This document shows positions 2,504-8,127 of a DNA stretch of 64,000 nucleotides, piece after piece; within the stretch, counting starts at the first letter, position 1, and every line of letters starts with the position of its first letter. The stretch comes from Granulicella sp. Lineage in GTDB: Bacteria; Acidobacteriota; Terriglobia; Terriglobales; Acidobacteriaceae. The DNA lies in NCBI GenBank assembly GCA_003132145.1, contig PKWU01000045.1, forward strand, positions 1,099-65,098. Reading direction: 5' to 3'. Below the pieces are notes generated by a model that saw only the letters and a list, made by a program, of their open reading frames with translations, had not been told where the DNA came from and did not search any database. The translations under genes and the position numbers were made by a program.

Positions 2504-2545
2504 GTTGACAATAAGCCACTCATATGTGAGACTGAATGAGTCGAT
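2504..2545 (+). promoter_or_regulatory. dnaK promoter (TTGACA-17-GAGACT) overlapped by two HAIR-like HspR operators
   Basis: gTTGAca-N7-ACTCAta (2504-2524) and tgTGAGa-N7-AgTCgAt (2525-2545) versus HAIR CTTGAGT-N7-ACTCAAG. hspR lies downstream. Confidence 0.5.
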
Positions 2546-2688: not shown

Positions 2689-4614
2689 ATGGGAAAGACG
2701 ATTGGAATCGATCTGGGAACGACGAACAGCTGCGTTGCGGTGATGGAGGGCGGCGAGCCGAAGGTGATCCCGAATGAAGAGGGCGGACGGACGACGCCGT
2801 CGATTGTGGCGTTTACCAAGAGCGGCGAGCGGCTGGTGGGGGCCGTGGCCAAGCGGCAGGCGATCACCAACCCGGAGAACACGGTCTATTCGATCAAACG
2901 GTTCATGGGGCGGCGGCTGAACGAGGTGGGCGACGAGCTGAAGATGGTGCCGTACAAGGTGGTCGCGAAGGGCGACAACGTGGCCGTGGTGGCGCAGGGC
3001 AAGGAGTACACGGCGCCGGAGATCTCGGCGATGATTTTGCAGAAGCTGAAGAAGGCCGCGGAGGACTATCTGGGCGGCGCGGTGACGGATGCGGTGATTA
3101 CGGTCCCCGCTTACTTCAACGACGCGCAGCGGCAGGCGACCAAGGATGCAGGCAAGATTGCCGGACTTGATGTGAAGCGGATTGTGAATGAGCCGACCGC
3201 GGCGGCGCTGGCCTATGGGCTGGACAGGAAGAAGGACGAGACGATTGCGGTGTACGACTTCGGCGGGGGGACTTTTGATATTTCCATTCTCGAAGTCGGC
3301 GAAGGCGTGATCGAGGTGAAGTCGACCAACGGCGATACGCATTTGGGTGGGGACAATCTTGATCAGCGGATTGTGGACTGGCTGATTGGGGAGTTCAAGA
3401 CGGACACGGGGCTTGACCTGCACGCCAAGGGCAACGAGATGGCGCTGCAACGGCTGCGCGACGCGGCGGAGAAGGCGAAGATCGAGCTTTCGACGGCGCA
3501 GGAGAGCGAGATCAACCTGCCGTTCATTACGGCGGACGCGAGCGGGCCGAAGCATCTGGTGCGGACGCTGAAGCGGCCACAGTTGGAGCAGATGGTCGAT
3601 GATCTGCTGCAGAAGTCGGTTGGGCCATGCAAGCAGGCGCTGAAGGACGCGGGGATCGATGCGTCGAAGATCGACGAGGTGGTTCTGGTTGGTGGACAGA
3701 CGCGAATGCCTGCGATCCAGGAGCTGGTGAAGAAGCTCTTCGGCAAAGAGCCGCACAAGGGTGTGAACCCGGACGAGGTGGTGGCGATCGGCGCGGCGGT
3801 GCAGGCGGGTGTGCTGGCGGGCGATGTGAAGGACCTGCTGCTGCTGGACGTGACTCCGCTGACTCTGTCGATTGAGACGATGGGCGGCGTGGCGACGAGC
3901 ATGATTGCACGCAACACGACGATTCCGACCAAGAAGACGGAGACGTTCTCGACGGCGGCGGACAGCCAGACCGAGGTTGAGGTGCATGTGATGCAGGGCG
4001 AACGGCCGATGGCGGCGCAGAACCGGACGCTGGGCAAGTTCAAGCTGGGCGGGATTCCGCTGGCCCCGCGTGGCGTGCCGCAGATCGAGGTGACGTTCGA
4101 CATCGATGCCAACGGGATCCTGAACGTGACGGCGAAGGACAAGGCCACGGGCAAGGACGCGAAGATCGCGATTACGAGTTCTTCGGGGTTGAGCAAGGAC
4201 GAGATCGAGCGGATGGCGAAGGACGCCGAGGCCCACGCGTCGGAGGACAAGGAGCAGCGCGAGAAGGTGGAGGCACGCAACGGGCTGGACTCGCTGGTGT
4301 ACAACGTGGAGAAGATGATCAAGGACGGCGGCGAGAAGGTAGCGGCGGCGGACAAGGTCGACGTGGAAGCTGCGCTGGCAGAGGCAAAAAAGACCCTGGA
4401 AGGCGAAGCGAGCGCGGCGGAGCTGAACGGCGCGAAGGAGAAGCTGACGGCGGCAAGCCACAAGCTGGCCGAGGCGCTGTACAAGGCGGCGGCAGAGGCC
4501 CCGGCTGCGGGCGCAACCGGCGCAACCGGCGCGGAGGGCGCTCCGGGAACGCAGGAAGAGAAGAAAAAAGACGAAGGTGTTATAGACGCGGAGTATGTGG
4601 ACGTGGATAAGTAA
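2689..4614 (+). CDS. dnaK: Molecular chaperone DnaK
   Basis: [40 protein letters not shown]; RBS CAGGAG upstream of ATG 2689. Confidence 0.99.
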
Positions 4615-4811
4615 AGAACGGCCACGGATGGATGTGGATCGCTGTAGACCGATTCGGCATCCAATCAAGAAGAGAAGCAGGGAAGGGCGCTCTGGTTGAG
4701 TTCGGCTAACTGGCCGGATCGGTTGGGGCGCTCTTCTAGTAGAGGCAGGGAACAGGGGTCAGGGAACAGGGAACAGGAAAGACACATGCTGCGTTGCGGA
4801 GGTGGGTGCGT

Positions 4812-4985
4812 ATGACTGAGTTGACGGTTTGGAAGTGCGAGCAGTGGGTTGGGGGAATTATCAAGGAGCAGAACCTCTTCCGTAGCGAGGAGGCTGCGCG
4901 GGAGTTTGCGCGCGCGCTGGCCGGGGTCTCTCCGGACCTGGTGTTCAAGATTGAGCCGATGCCATTGCAGCATGTGTGGAACTGA
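4812..4985 (+). CDS. 57-aa hypothetical protein (VWN-tail paralog 1)
   Basis: RBS GGAGG; MTELTVWKCEQWVGGIIKEQNLFRSEEAAREFARALAGVSPDLVFKIEPMPLQHVWN; aligns with 5400-5570. Confidence 0.8.
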   Translation: MTELTVWKCEQWVGGIIKEQNLFRSEEAAREFARALAGVSPDLVFKIEPMPLQHVWN

Positions 4986-5002
4986 GGCTGCGCATTGAAA
5001 AA

Positions 5003-5034
5003 GCAGATTCCTCCGCTGCGCTGCGGAATGACAA
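5003..5034. repeat. Palindromic REP-like repeat family A (gcagattcctccgctgcgctgcggaatgacaa)
   Basis: Near-identical copies at 13305, 16950, 17010, 22144, 22200, 46791 and 63630; variants near 2604, 12788, 14057, 16880 and 22258. Hairpin with a TGTC/CGTC tag on the minus strand. Confidence 0.9.
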
Positions 5035-5399
5035 GCAACAGGGCTGCGGAGTGACAAGAGGGAAAGTGCAGGGGGGGATTCAGGATGGTTCCCCACAGGA
5101 ATTTGGCGGGTTGGGCTGTTGCGCGGGGCGAGGACGTGAGACATTGGAGGAGACAAAAGGACGCATGAAGCGGTGGAGATGAAATTTCTGTACAACTGAA
5201 GTGCTGCTGGAAGGTCTGATCTTCTCAAGAAGGAGCAGGGACGCGAACCGGTATGGCTGAGCGGCTGAGCACGAAGAGCGGCACGAATGCTGGACGGAGA
5301 GTTGAACGACAAGGCTAAACAACAAGGCTGGACAACAGGGCTGAACAACAGAGCGGGACAACAGAACCTGGAACTCAATCGGAGCTTGGAGGGTAGGCT

Positions 5400-5570
5400 A
5401 TGACGGAGACCATGTGGCGGTGTGACCAGGTTCGGGCCGGACAGTTGTACAACCGGGTGATGTTCAACACGCGCGAAGAGGCCGAGGAGTTTATGACCCG
5501 GATGCGGCAGATGGAGCCGGACCAGGCGATCTCGGTGGAAGAGATTGAGGCGCGGAAGGTGTGGAACTGA
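5400..5570 (+). CDS. 56-aa hypothetical protein (VWN-tail paralog 2), absent from ORF track
   Basis: RBS GGAGGG; MTETMWRCDQVRAGQLYNRVMFNTREEAEEFMTRMRQMEPDQAISVEEIEARKVWN. Confidence 0.8.
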   Translation: MTETMWRCDQVRAGQLYNRVMFNTREEAEEFMTRMRQMEPDQAISVEEIEARKVWN

Positions 5571-5609
5571 AGGGCTGGCAGGGCCGGAAGCTGAGCTTGA
5601 AGCAAAGGT

Positions 5610-5643
5610 AAAAAAAGGCGCGGCTTCGGCCGCGCTTTTTTTT
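5610..5643. terminator. Intrinsic terminator, possibly bidirectional
   Basis: A-tract, 7-bp stem GCGCGGC/GCCGCGC with TTCG loop, then T8. Confidence 0.88.
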
Positions 5644-5665
5644 GAGCATGAGCAAGGAGAGGATG

Positions 5666-5980
5666 ATGGCTATACCAAGAGACCCGAACCGCATGCCTCC
5701 GCCGATGCATCCCGGAGAGATTCTTCGCGAGGAGTTCATGGTGCCGATGGGCTTATCAGCGAATGCGCTGGCGATGGCGTTGCGCGTTCCGGCGACGCGC
5801 ATCTCGCAGATCGTACATGAGCGGCGCGGGATCACGGCGGACACCGCGTACCGGCTTGCAACCTACTTTGGTACTTCGGCGGAGCTGTGGATGAATCTGC
5901 AGACGACGTATGAGCTATCGACGCTGCAACGCACGACGCTTCCCTCCATACGGAGAGAGGTGCAACGCCAGGTGGCGTAG
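5666..5980 (+). CDS. higA: HigA-family antitoxin (XRE HTH), no adjacent toxin
   Basis: MHPGEILREEF...RISQIVHERRGITADTAYRLATYFGTSAELWMNLQ; RBS AAGGAG. Confidence 0.9.
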   Translation: MAIPRDPNRMPPPMHPGEILREEFMVPMGLSANALAMALRVPATRISQIVHERRGITADTAYRLATYFGTSAELWMNLQTTYELSTLQRTTLPSIRREVQRQVA

Positions 5981-6068
5981 CGGTCGATAGCTTGCAGGGA
6001 GAGACCGTCGTGCGGATGAGGTCCGACGGGAGCATTGAAGGTTGCGCGAAGGCCAGAAGGGTTTCTAG

Positions 6069-7328
6069 ATGGCGACACAGACGAAGGACTACTACAGCAC
6101 GCTGGGAGTGAAGCGGGGGGCGACGGCGGAGGAGATCCGCAAGGCGTTCCGCAAGCTGGCGCGCCGGTACCACCCGGACGTGAACCCGAACGACAAGCGG
6201 GCGGAGGAGAAGTTCAAGGAGATCTCCCAGGCCAACGACGTGTTGAGCGACGAGAAGAAGCGGAAGATCTACGATCAGGTGGGATTTTATTCGGACAATA
6301 TCGATCCGGCGGCGGCGGAGGCGGCGGCGCGGGGAGGGTACGGCGGGGGATTTGCGGGGGGTGGATTTCCGGGCGGAGCGCGGGCCGGCGGTCGAGGCGG
6401 GCAGGAGGTTCCGTTCGACTTTGGGGGATTCGATTTTTCGGACTTTCAGGGCAGCGGTGGACACGCGCGCCCTGGAACTCAGGAGCAGGCGGGCGGCGGG
6501 TTTGGCGGGAGCTTCAAGGACATCTTTGGCGGGATGTTCAGCGGTGGACACAAGGCGGCGCGCGGGCCGCGGCCGGGGACCGACCTGGAATATCAGGTGA
6601 GCGTGGACTTCTGGTCGGCGGTGCGCGGCGGAGTGGCGCGGCTGGAGATTCAGAGGCAGGAGACGTGCCCGGCGTGCAAGGGCAAGTCGGCGACGGGCGG
6701 CGGCAGTGAGTGCCCGGAGTGCCACGGCACGGGCCAGGTGACGCAGATGGGCGGGCGGATGAAGTTCAACATCCAGTGCCCGCGATGCGGCGGGACGGGC
6801 AAGCAGCAGAGCGGCTGCCCGACGTGCAATGGCGAGGGTGTGATGGCGCGACGCGAGCCGCTGGAGTTCCGCATCAAGGCGGGAACGCGCGATGGGCAGA
6901 GGATAAGGCTGGCGGGCAGAGGGAACGCAGGGACGGACGGCGGCGCGGCGGGAGATTTGTTCCTGATTGTGAAGGTGGGGACGCACCCGGTGTTTACGCG
7001 GGTGGCGGACGACATTTATGTGACGGTGCCGGTGACGATGACGGAGGCTGCGCTGGGGGCGAAGATCGACGTGCCGACGATCGATACACATGACGGCGGC
7101 GGGCGGACTCAGTTGAAGATTCCGCCGGGGACGCAGACCGGGCAGAAGCTGCGGTTGAGGGAGAAGGGCGTGCCCAGCGCGTCGCACGAGGGGATGCGCG
7201 GCGACGAGATTGTGGAGGTGAAGATCGTGGTGCCGCATGTGCAGGACGAGCGGTCGAAGGAGATATTGAGGGAGCTGGCGAAGCTGAATCCGGAGGACCC
7301 AAGGGCGGAGCTGCTGGGCGAGGTGTAG
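6069..7328 (+). CDS. dnaJ: Molecular chaperone DnaJ
   Basis: J domain with HPD, G/F-rich linker, four CxxCxGxG-type repeats, C-terminal domain. Confidence 0.97.
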
Positions 7329-7638: not shown

Positions 7639-8127
7639 ATGGCGACGAAGCGGAAGAAGCAAGGCGCGTACATGATCTCGGCGGTGGCGGAGATGTATGA
7701 GATCCATCCGCAGACGCTGCGGCTGTATGAGCGCGAGGGGCTGCTGCTGCCCAGCCGGAGCGAGGGCAACACGCGGCTGTATACCGACGAGGACCTGGAA
7801 CGGCTGGAGTTCATCCTGAACCTGGCGCGCGACCTGGGTGTGAATATCGCGGGGATCGCGATTGTGCTGCAGATGCGAGAGCGGATGGAGGAGATGAACC
7901 GGCAGATGCAGGGGTTCGTGGACTACGTGCGGACGGAGATGCTGAGCCGGATCCAACAGCAGCAGCCCAGCGCAGGGCTGGTTCCGATGCCGCGGCCGGT
8001 AATTGTGCCGCAGCGAGCGGCGGCGGGGAAGGTTGTGGCTTTGCCGGGGAAGGCCGCGGCGCTGAAGGGCGCGATTGTGGGTGGGAAGAGCGCGGGGAAA
8101 GCGGCGAAGGGGAAGACGAAGGAATAG
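7639..8127 (+). CDS. hspR: HspR, MerR-family heat-shock repressor
   Basis: YMISAVAEMYEIHPQTLRLYEREGLLLPSRSEGNTRLY...GVNIAGI; lies downstream of dnaJ. Confidence 0.9.
   Translation: MATKRKKQGAYMISAVAEMYEIHPQTLRLYEREGLLLPSRSEGNTRLYTDEDLERLEFILNLARDLGVNIAGIAIVLQMRERMEEMNRQMQGFVDYVRTEMLSRIQQQQPSAGLVPMPRPVIVPQRAAAGKVVALPGKAAALKGAIVGGKSAGKAAKGKTKE

What the first reader, a model, noticed from the sequence alone, without database searches (positions are those of the whole stretch)
4812..5570. Pair of paralogous 56-57 aa proteins ending in VWN between dnaK and dnaJ
Seen: both have good RBSs and align as MTE.T.W.C.Q...G......F...E.A.EF......PD.....E......VWN. One is below the ORF-track cutoff. Conserved W-x-C and the terminal VWN despite low identity point to purifying selection. 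Inference: an uncharacterised microprotein family sitting where grpE lies in actinobacterial dnaK-grpE-dnaJ-hspR operons; it may be heat-induced or a chaperone/protease adaptor.
Basis: partly seen in the sequence, partly recalled or inferred. Interest (0 to 1): 0.7.

Follow-up and report, generated by a model that had tools for sequence, protein, structure and literature searches.

The report
Conserved small proteins tied to dnaK
Two real, related 56-57-residue genes after the heat-shock chaperone gene dnaK belong to an undescribed protein family that one large branch of soil Acidobacteriaceae has kept in exactly that place; its function is not known, and a role alongside the chaperone is my best guess.

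Summary
smA (4812-4985) and smB (5400-5570) are paralogs (BLASTP E 5e-12, 33% identity). Each has about 100 homolog clusters, and nearly all end in VWN.

- **Coding and expression:** smB is under strong purifying selection (dN/dS 0.07) and smA under weaker selection (0.23). Both occur in peat metatranscriptome contigs.
- **No known relatives:** AlphaFold gives a confident beta-beta-alpha-beta fold (pLDDT 87.5). Nothing matched in Pfam, NCBIfam, PHROGs, PADLOC, PDB sequences or Foldseek-PDB.
- **Distribution:** the family is confined to Acidobacteriaceae (118 of 401 genomes, 28 of 116 genera). It is normally single-copy; smA is an extra copy in part of one genus.
- **Position:** the gene lies directly 3' of dnaK on the same strand in 80 of 80 loci and 27 of 27 further genera, while everything between it and dnaJ varies.
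- **Second family:** the sister clade carries an unrelated ~58-residue gene, which I call sm2, in the same slot.
- **Against a grpE replacement:** grpE is present elsewhere in the genome. Most lineages have a terminator between dnaK and smB, and smB has its own conserved upstream element.

I could not test heat induction or any chaperone or protease-adaptor role. My best guess is a small acidic protein that binds a partner in the DnaK system, as DafA does in Thermus. The main rival is a functionally unrelated occupant of a permissive slot.

The parts
2504..2524 (+). Conserved dnaK promoter block GTTGACA-N7-ACTCATA. It is a -35-like hexamer overlapping a degenerate HAIR-like (HspR operator-like) repeat.
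   Evidence: Alignment of 78 dnaK upstream regions. Relatives read TTGACA-GTAAGTG-ACTCAAG.
2689..4614 (+). dnaK (Hsp70)
   Evidence: ORF list. Orthologs are 77-87% identical in all related loci.
4812..4985 (+). smA: the 57-aa A-type paralog, ending in VWN
   Evidence: It has 92 homolog clusters and dN/dS 0.23. It is present in 29 of 80 smB-bearing loci, always between dnaK and smB. RNA contigs cover 4776-5028.
5071..5099 (+). Conserved G-rich hairpin block GGGGGGGATTCAGGATGGTTCCCCACAGG in the smA-smB spacer. It is unique in the genome.
   Evidence: Spacer alignment, regex scan of loci, uniqueness in the genome.
5132..5158 (+). Conserved non-coding block GGACGTGAGACATTGGAGGAGACAAAA upstream of smB. 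It may be a promoter region; no function has been shown.
   Evidence: At least 90% conserved columns in the smA-smB spacer alignment. By eye, without an alignment or score, it resembles the block GATTGACGTGTAGAGTGCGACAT in dnaK-smB spacers of loci without smA.
5366..5381 (+). Near-invariant 16-nt element ACCTGGAACTCAATCG, about 20-35 nt before the smB start. It is not kept in frame with smB and is unique in the genome.
   Evidence: At least 95% conserved in 75 distinct upstream regions, with no consensus RNA fold. Unique in G000. Together with its 5' flank it matches the HAIR consensus at 10-11 of 14 positions in 50 of 80 loci, but only 9 of 14 in the window.
5400..5570 (+). smB: the 56-aa B-type copy, the ortholog kept throughout the clade, ending in VWN
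   Evidence: It has 105 homolog clusters and dN/dS 0.07. AlphaFold pLDDT is 87.5 with strands at 4-12, 15-22 and 43-50 and helices at 25-38 and 51-55. RNA contigs cover 5383-5642.
5610..5643 (+). Intrinsic terminator (A-run, GC stem 5618-5635, T-run) closing the smB unit
   Evidence: The same GGCGCGGCTTCGGCCGYGCC hairpin follows smB in many related loci.
5642..5980 (+). Orphan HigA-like XRE antitoxin gene. It is variable cargo between smB and dnaJ.
   Evidence: Pfam HTH_3, E 9e-7. Related loci carry nei, a full higBA pair or other genes here.
6069..7328 (+). dnaJ
7639..8127 (+). hspR-like MerR-family regulator
   Evidence: Pfam MerR_1, E 6e-19. It is conserved downstream of dnaJ in related loci.

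Best explanation
**Shown**
- smA and smB are real protein-coding genes of an undescribed family specific to Acidobacteriaceae.
- The family is about 56 residues long, acidic, predicted to fold as beta-beta-alpha-beta plus a short C-terminal helix, and ends in an invariant Trp-Asn.
- The ancestor of one of the two major Acidobacteriaceae clades acquired the gene immediately 3' of dnaK.
- It has stayed there, on the same strand and under strong purifying selection, while the DNA between it and dnaJ was repeatedly remodelled.
- The window's genus keeps the orthologous copy (smB). Some of its members also carry a faster-evolving second copy (smA) inserted between dnaK and smB.

**Inferred**
- The product is a soluble protein that works by binding a protein partner.
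- It is made together with, or under the same stress control as, the DnaK-DnaJ-HspR locus.
- It modulates the Hsp70 system, for example DnaK/DnaJ assembly, substrate hand-over or HspR feedback. This is the way the unrelated small protein DafA works in Thermus.
- smB is probably expressed from its own conserved upstream region as well as by read-through from dnaK.
For: **Real coding genes**
- The paralogy is significant.
- Each copy has about 100 homolog clusters.
- dN/dS is 0.07 for smB and 0.23 for smA, at dS of about 1.
- Shine-Dalgarno sequences and start codons are conserved.
- The AlphaFold model is confident.
- Peat metatranscriptome contigs from several studies cover smA, the spacer and smB.

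**Tie to dnaK**
- dnaK lies directly upstream on the same strand in 80 of 80 loci and in 27 of 27 additional genera.
- Cys-less members only 36-55% identical to smB (P0253, P0267, P0265) keep the position.
- The smB-dnaJ gap ranges from 104 to 3841 nt and holds nei, higBA or other genes.
- Extra copies arise inside the same spacer (smA, and the L111 tandem pair).

**The same slot filled twice**
- The sister clade carries an unrelated ~58-aa gene (sm2) in dnaK-sm2-dnaJ order in 25 of 25 loci examined.
- The two families share neither profile similarity nor predicted fold.

**Likely protein binder**
- Both copies are acidic by residue count from the sequences (net charge about -3 for smB and -2 for smA). 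This argues against nucleic-acid binding.
- The beta-hairpin WRCDQVRAGQLYNR is almost invariant within the B subfamily.

**Precedent**
- DafA forms a DnaK3-DnaJ3-DafA3 complex in Thermus thermophilus (PMC3727329).
Against: - No direct evidence of heat induction, translation or binding to DnaK, DnaJ or HspR.
- In 40 of 51 loci without smA, a terminator-like hairpin separates dnaK from smB.
- No RNA contig bridges the dnaK 3' end to smA, so co-transcription with dnaK is not shown.
- On the DnaK tree the gene's presence needs a single gain. The many syntenic genomes therefore amount to one inherited arrangement, not many independent associations.
- Small lineage-specific genes accumulate at dnaK-dnaJ junctions in other phyla without evidence of chaperone function (earlier scan notes).
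- The HAIR-like match of the smB upstream element is weak. It is 9 of 14 in the window, and the canonical HAIR consensus is not enriched in this genome.
Confidence: 0.4

Rival explanations
1. Slot occupant. The dnaK-dnaJ junction is a permissive, well-expressed site where small genes are captured or born. smA/smB (and sm2 in the sister clade) are functional small proteins whose job has nothing to do with Hsp70. Their adjacency to dnaK is simply inherited.
For: - Presence needs only one gain on the DnaK tree.
- The same spacer also collects nei, higBA, glycosyltransferase, SnoaL-like genes and REP-like repeats.
- Most loci have a terminator between dnaK and smB, and smB has its own upstream region.
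- Earlier scan notes describe variable small-gene slots in dnaK operons of other phyla.
Against: - In more than 50 genera the small gene never moved away from the dnaK 3' end, although the neighbouring DNA was rearranged many times.
- Two unrelated families fill exactly the same position and orientation in sister clades.
- Duplicates stay in the slot.
- The constraint is very strong (dN/dS 0.07).
Confidence: 0.33
2. Regulatory leader ORF. Translation of smB, possibly with stalling at the conserved W-N-stop, controls the terminator that follows it. This would set read-through into dnaJ-hspR. The peptide itself would be unimportant.
For: - A conserved terminator lies 40-70 nt after the stop, and dnaJ follows at 104-130 nt in many smA-bearing loci.
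- The last two residues are invariant.
Against: - The whole 56-residue sequence is constrained and predicted to fold with pLDDT 87.5.
- In most lineages 1-3.8 kb of other genes separate smB from dnaJ.
- No alternative RNA structure was predicted.
Confidence: 0.05
3. Tag or precursor. The protein would be a C-terminally activated modifier or a peptide precursor. Candidates are a Pup/UBact-like tag or a microcin-C-like precursor, which uses a terminal Asn.
For: - smB gives weak sub-threshold UBact hits (Pfam E 0.015, NCBIfam E 0.025).
- The terminal Asn is invariant.
- A terminal Asn is also common in sm2: 8 of 8 and 13 of 20 sequences, against a 3.3% background.
Against: - The UBact scores are far below the cut-offs (15.5 vs 27.8 bits).
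- The protein is predicted to be folded, not disordered.
- No ligase, deamidase or ThiF/MccB-like gene lies in any of the loci examined.
Confidence: 0.03
4. Chance ORFs or non-coding RNA rather than proteins.
For: Both are short. Many gene callers either miss them or extend them upstream (lengths of 56-98 aa).
Against: - dN/dS is 0.07-0.23 at saturating dS.
- Start, Shine-Dalgarno and stop positions are conserved.
- There is no Rfam match.
- The fold prediction is confident.
Confidence: 0.01

Closest known systems
DafA (DnaK-DnaJ assembly factor A) of Thermus thermophilus
   Same: A lineage-restricted small protein encoded in the dnaK locus. DafA joins DnaK and DnaJ in a 3:3:3 complex and is displaced by substrate (PMC3727329). 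This is the working model I adopt for smB.
   Different: A profile search of 1.84 billion representatives returned only family members and repeat artefacts, so no sequence relationship was detected. From my own knowledge, not checked here, DafA lies after dnaJ in dnaK-grpE-dnaJ-dafA-clpB. Here the gene lies directly after dnaK, and grpE is elsewhere. Binding has not been tested.
CbpM, the modulator of the DnaJ homolog CbpA in E. coli
   Same: A small protein encoded next to an Hsp70-system gene. It regulates a J-protein by direct binding (PMC4063869, abstract).
   Different: According to that paper, CbpM is related to MerR/HspR-type regulators. smA and smB have no MerR similarity and a different predicted fold.
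GrpE in actinobacterial dnaK-grpE-dnaJ-hspR operons
   Same: The same map position between dnaK and dnaJ, in a locus that ends with an HspR-like MerR regulator.
   Different: There is no GrpE domain. A normal grpE (PF01025, E 2.5e-42) sits on another contig. A 56-residue protein cannot be a GrpE-type dimeric exchange factor.
sm2, the unrelated ~58-aa gene in the same slot in the sister Acidobacteriaceae clade (undescribed, found here)
   Same: It lies directly 3' of dnaK on the same strand, before dnaJ, and has a similar length. It often ends in Asn.
   Different: There is no profile similarity (hhalign probability 0.2%). The predicted fold is all-beta with a disordered tail, at pLDDT 70.7.
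Variable small-gene slots in dnaK operons of Patescibacteria
   Same: Conserved small proteins and fast-turnover genes inserted between dnaK and dnaJ.
   Different: These are different phyla, unrelated sequences and translationally coupled operons. In the present locus the units are bounded by terminators.

Membership tests
DafA-like DnaK-locus accessory protein | Small protein encoded within the dnaK/dnaJ locus | tested here: met
   It lies directly 3' of dnaK in 80 of 80 loci and 27 of 27 further genera.
DafA-like DnaK-locus accessory protein | Sequence homology to Thermus DafA | tested here: not met
   The profile search of 1.84e9 representatives gave 116 hits, all family members or repeat artefacts. 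DafA itself was not fetched for a pairwise test.
DafA-like DnaK-locus accessory protein | Forms a complex with DnaK and DnaJ | not testable with these tools
   This needs pull-down, two-hybrid or multimer modelling. Fused or paired sequences are not accepted by the structure tool.
GrpE (PF01025) | GrpE domain | tested here: not met
   Neither ORF has a Pfam hit to GrpE. The genome's grpE is at G000:C84:28285-28731.
UBact / Pup-like prokaryotic ubiquitin-like tags | Match to PF20513 or NF033388 above the curated cut-off | tested here: not met
   smB scores 15.5 bits against a cut-off of 27.8 and 14.8 against 35. smA gives no hit.
UBact / Pup-like prokaryotic ubiquitin-like tags | Intrinsically disordered peptide with a ligase or deamidase encoded nearby | tested here: not met
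   The protein is predicted to be folded (pLDDT 87.5). The neighbours are dnaK, nei, higBA, dnaJ, hspR and GT2 only.
HspR regulon (HAIR operator CTTGAGT-N7-ACTCAAG) | HAIR-like inverted repeat in the gene's own upstream region | tested here: inconclusive
   The conserved element before smB matches at 10-11 of 14 positions in 50 of 80 loci, but only 9 of 14 in the window, and its left half is not conserved. The canonical HAIR consensus is not enriched genome-wide: 81 hits against about 126 expected.
Microcin-C-type precursors (terminal Asn) | Adjacent MccB/ThiF-like adenylyltransferase | tested here: not met
   None of the queries used (dnaK, smA, smB, higA, dnaJ, orf92, hspR, nei) or the precomputed Pfam calls found such a gene. 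Only L105-L112 carry Pfam calls for all genes; other flanking ORFs were not screened.
Type II toxin-antitoxin pair | Two adjacent small genes matching toxin or antitoxin families | tested here: not met
   There are no Pfam, PADLOC or PHROGs matches. The two genes are paralogs 415 nt apart, and most genomes have one copy.

The most novel reading that the evidence does not exclude
Acidobacteriaceae have a dedicated third component of the Hsp70 machine, encoded in a fixed slot directly after dnaK. Two unrelated ~57-residue proteins fill that slot in the two major clades: the VWN family and sm2. They would be a non-orthologous replacement for the same job. Both would dock on DnaK, DnaJ or HspR through a free C-terminal Asn-containing end, a bacterial counterpart of C-terminal docking motifs such as EEVD. 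smA would be a specialised second isoform.
Probability: 0.12. Interest if true: 0.8.

Novelty: new variant of a known kind. Interest (0 to 1): 0.5.

Why it matters
Acidobacteriaceae (Granulicella, Edaphobacter and relatives) are among the most abundant and active bacteria in acidic soils and peat, yet little of their stress biology has been tested experimentally.

- **What is new.** This is a 56-residue protein under very strong constraint. It is fixed next to dnaK across at least 28 genera, is transcribed in situ, and has no relatives in any library searched.
- **Why a link to Hsp70 is plausible.** An unrelated protein of the same size sits in the same place in the sister clade. Both are therefore candidates for a lineage-specific Hsp70 partner or stress factor.
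- **Value if confirmed.** It would be a second example, after Thermus DafA, of a small accessory subunit of the bacterial DnaK system. It would also be a clean case of non-orthologous replacement.
- **Value if refuted.** It would show that heat-shock operon junctions act as long-lived homes for unrelated small genes.
- **Practical point.** Gene callers often miss these genes or call them too long (56-98 aa versions in the databases).

Tried and rejected
- **Family and structure libraries.** Pfam, NCBIfam, PHROGs, PADLOC, a PDB sequence-profile search and Foldseek-PDB gave nothing significant. The best Foldseek E-value was 0.2. The weak UBact and DUF406/YiiS hits cover a single helix.
- **Rfam.** A scan of 4400-6200 matched only the terminator region, weakly, to unrelated sRNA families.
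- **Profile search artefacts.** Long multi-stretch hits from the profile search (P0274, P0298, P0305) are repeat proteins and not relatives.
- **RNA thermometer or SD-sequestering fold.** RNAalifold found no consensus structure before smB.
- **CsrA-type regulation through the two GGA motifs.** The genome has no CsrA homolog by tblastn with E. coli CsrA.
- **Regulon motif.** The 16-nt element before smB is unique in the genome, so it is not a shared regulon site.
- **Sigma-54, sigma-32 and ECF readings of that element.** I rejected these by eye on spacing. No tool supports any of them.
- **HAIR operator.** This remains only a weak lead.
- **sm2 as a distant homolog.** Rejected on hhalign probability 0.2% and a different predicted fold.
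- **Invariant terminal Asn in sm2.** It held in the first 8 sequences but in only 13 of the next 20.
- **First synteny run.** It used a dnaK query translated one base out of frame. I repeated it with the correct frame.

Full report
**1. The observation**

- smA is at 4812-4985 (+), 57 aa: MTELTVWKCEQWVGGIIKEQNLFRSEEAAREFARALAGVSPDLVFKIEPMPLQHVWN.
- smB is at 5400-5570 (+), 56 aa: MTETMWRCDQVRAGQLYNRVMFNTREEAEEFMTRMRQMEPDQAISVEEIEARKVWN.
- They lie between dnaK (2689-4614) and dnaJ (6069-7328), which is followed by an HspR-like MerR gene at 7639-8127.
- Each has a GGAGG-type ribosome-binding site 6-9 nt before the ATG. An in-frame TAG one codon before the smB ATG fixes its start.
- BLASTP of one against the other gives 33% identity over the full length, E 5e-12.

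**2. They are real genes**

- Each copy retrieves about 100 clusters of homologs at 65-96% identity from public genomes and metagenomes.
- 190 of 197 representatives end in xWN and 173 end in VWN.
- Many database versions are 70-98 aa long only because gene callers extended them upstream.
- Across both subfamilies W6, C8, G14, F22, P40, D41, W55 and N56 are invariant.
- In more divergent members the Cys becomes Tyr or Ala, so it is not essential.
- Pairwise Nei-Gojobori estimates on the DNA of 81 smB and 28 smA orthologs give median dN/dS of 0.069 and 0.228, at dS of about 0.8-1.2.
- Metatranscriptome assemblies from peat, seven runs from several studies, contain contigs over smA (4776-5028), the spacer (5020-5424) and smB (5383-5642; 5426-5776 with no differences).
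- These are assembled contigs, so they show presence of RNA and not its level.
- No contig bridges the dnaK 3' end (about 4660) to 4745. That stretch is variable and repeat-rich.

**3. Structure and similarity**

- AlphaFold2 with the family alignment gives pLDDT 87.5.
- The predicted elements are strands at 4-12, 15-22 and 43-50, a helix at 25-38 and a short helix at 51-55.
- Foldseek against the PDB gives no hit with E at or below 0.001 (best 0.2).
- Pfam, NCBIfam, PHROGs, PADLOC and a PDB sequence-profile search give nothing above noise.
- A profile search of 1.84 billion representative proteins finds 116 hits, all family members or repeat-protein artefacts.
- Both proteins are acidic by residue count (net charge about -3 and -2).

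**4. Distribution**

- In a class-wide sample, hits occur only in the window's own family (30 of 301 genomes).
- In a family-wide sample, 118 of 401 genomes and 28 of 116 genera have the gene. It is almost always single-copy.
- Named carriers include Granulicella and Edaphobacter MAGs, Edaphobacter modestus DSM 18101, Edaphobacter sp. HDX4, and Acidobacteriaceae bacteria KBS 89 and TAA 166.
- Two copies occur only in some members of the window's genus.
- An independent tandem pair occurs in one metagenome contig, where the second copy has lost the VWN end (L111).

**5. Gene order**

- In all 80 loci fetched from species-representative genomes the order is dnaK(+), then smA in 29 of them, then smB, then variable genes, then dnaJ and usually hspR.

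| Gap | Range | Median | Source |
|---|---|---|---|
| dnaK stop to smB, loci without smA | 173-292 nt | 222 | |
| dnaK stop to smA | 96-218 nt | 161 | |
| smB stop to dnaJ | 104-3841 nt | 1066 | |

- The variable part usually holds an Fpg/Nei-family glycosylase gene. It sometimes holds higBA or an orphan higA, as in the window, or other genes.
- One genome from each of 27 further genera shows the small gene directly 3' of dnaK in 27 of 27 cases. In one of them dnaK is frameshifted in the assembly.
- Cys-less members only 36-55% identical to smB keep the arrangement.

**6. Transcription signals**

- In the window I found no terminator between dnaK and smA or between smA and smB.
- A strong bidirectional terminator follows smB at 5610-5643.
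- In loci without smA, 40 of 51 have a conserved hairpin plus T-run (GAGGGGC...GCCCCTC-TTTTTT) right after dnaK.
- A conserved stretch of about 150 nt then leads into smB.
- A 16-nt element, ACCTGGAACTCAATCG (window 5366-5381), is at least 95% conserved in 75 distinct upstream regions. It is not kept in frame with smB and is unique in the genome.
- With its 5' flank, the element matches the HspR operator consensus CTTGAGT-N7-ACTCAAG at 10-11 of 14 positions in 50 of 80 loci, but only 9 of 14 in the window.
- The dnaK promoter has a similar TTGACA-N7-ACTCAAG block.
- The canonical consensus is not enriched in the genome, so I treat the operator reading as a lead only.
- smB therefore looks like a unit with its own control region, bounded by terminators. 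In the window's lineage it may in addition be read through from dnaK.

**7. The grpE analogy**

- The genome has a normal grpE on another contig (PF01025, E 2.5e-42).
- The small proteins therefore do not replace GrpE. The resemblance to actinobacterial dnaK-grpE-dnaJ-hspR operons is one of map position.

**8. An unexpected parallel**

- Acidobacteriaceae genera that lack the family carry a different ~58-aa ORF directly after dnaK. An example is MDFQVNDQTYFLSLAEDDRRWLFFVSTPDGAVSIPVYEDAAEGRPLVVLQEEKQRMPN.
- This family, which I call sm2, is in 191 of 401 genomes and 55 of 116 genera.
- It lies in dnaK-sm2-dnaJ order in 25 of 25 loci examined.
- It has no Pfam match and is absent from the window's genome.
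- It is unrelated to smB by profile comparison (hhalign probability 0.2%).
- It is also unrelated in predicted fold: four strands and a disordered tail, pLDDT 70.7.
- On a DnaK tree of 61 loci, the VWN-bearing genomes form one side of a single branch (weak support, 65). The sm2-bearing ones form the other clade (support 97-99).
- Each small gene was therefore probably fixed once, early, and then kept.
- sm2 also tends to end in Asn: 8 of 8 in the first set and 13 of 20 in the second. The background for long ORFs of this genome is 3.3%. I have no explanation for this.

**9. Origin of the pair**

- On a tree of the small proteins (56 columns, low resolution), smB groups with the single copies of the genera nearest by DnaK. 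It is therefore the ortholog.
- smA sits on a long branch with the single copy of a neighbouring genus (L136).
- smA is therefore either an old duplicate lost from most genomes or a copy imported from a related lineage into the dnaK-smB spacer.
- smA evolves about three times faster than smB.

**10. Interpretation**

- Shown: a new, strongly constrained, transcribed small-protein family held next to dnaK for the whole history of a large acidobacterial clade.
- Inferred (confidence about 0.4): a protein-binding accessory of the DnaK-DnaJ-HspR system, by analogy with Thermus DafA (PMC3727329).
- The inference rests on three things: the unbroken adjacency while its surroundings changed, the retention of duplicates in the slot, and the filling of the same slot by an unrelated protein in the sister clade.
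- Main rival (about 0.33): a functionally unrelated occupant of a permissive junction. The single-gain phylogeny, the terminators and reports of similar slots in other phyla support this reading.
- The leader-peptide, tag or precursor, and non-coding readings are unlikely (section 2 above).

**11. Verdict**

- The family is undescribed but belongs to a known kind of thing: small lineage-specific proteins encoded in Hsp70 loci.
- Interest is moderate. The two-family slot makes it a good, cheap experimental target.

Noticed in passing
L113:2128-3222(-), L114:6477-6680, L119:6277-6477, L154:4451-4681, L155, L156-L175: A second, unrelated ~58-aa family (sm2) lies directly 3' of dnaK and before dnaJ in the Acidobacteriaceae clade that lacks the VWN family. 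It is in 191 of 401 genomes and 55 of 116 genera. It has no Pfam match, a predicted all-beta fold with a disordered tail, and a last residue of Asn in 21 of 28 sequences.
   Followed up: partly
window 5071-5099 and 5132-5158: Two conserved non-coding blocks lie in the smA-smB spacer: a G-rich hairpin (GGGGAATTCRGGCTGGTTCCCCACAGG) and GGACGTGAGACATTGGAnGAGACAAAA. Both are unique in the genome. The spacer is covered by metatranscriptome contigs at depths similar to or above smA and smB. They may be a promoter or an sRNA.
   Followed up: partly
window 2504-2524: The dnaK promoter carries a -35-like TTGACA overlapping a degenerate HAIR-like repeat (GTTGACA-N7-ACTCATA). Relatives have TTGACA-GTAAGTG-ACTCAAG, followed by CTTGAGC 8 nt further on. 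This fits HspR control of dnaK in Acidobacteriaceae.
   Followed up: partly
window 5642-5980; L111:534-1158; L112:6711-7203: The window's HigA-like gene has no toxin partner. Related loci carry a full higB-higA pair at the same place between the small gene and dnaJ. The window copy therefore looks like a remnant of a higBA insertion.
   Followed up: partly
L052:6208-7158, L092:6296-7180, L105:5322-6116: An Fpg/Nei-family DNA glycosylase gene sits between the small gene and dnaJ in many genera. This looks like an ancestral order of dnaK - small gene - nei - dnaJ - hspR. The window's lineage has lost nei from this site.
   Followed up: no
L111:131-486: An independent tandem duplication of the family, with the two copies 5 nt apart. 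The first copy ends in VWN. The second ends in ...EAEEERG and has lost the WN terminus.
   Followed up: no
window 4745-4780 and 4998-5038: Short repeat units (GGGAACAGG runs, and GCAGATTCCTCCGCTGCGCTGCGGAATGACAAG) flank smA. They draw very high summed depth from many unrelated metatranscriptome contigs, up to about 3000. They appear to be REP-like elements common in these peat Acidobacteria.
   Followed up: no
L153 (G508:C8) and L154 (G508:C16): One genome holds both arrangements. One locus has a frameshifted dnaK followed by the VWN gene, higA, dnaJ and hspR. The other has an intact dnaK-sm2-dnaJ. It is either a mixed bin or a real second, decaying locus.
   Followed up: no
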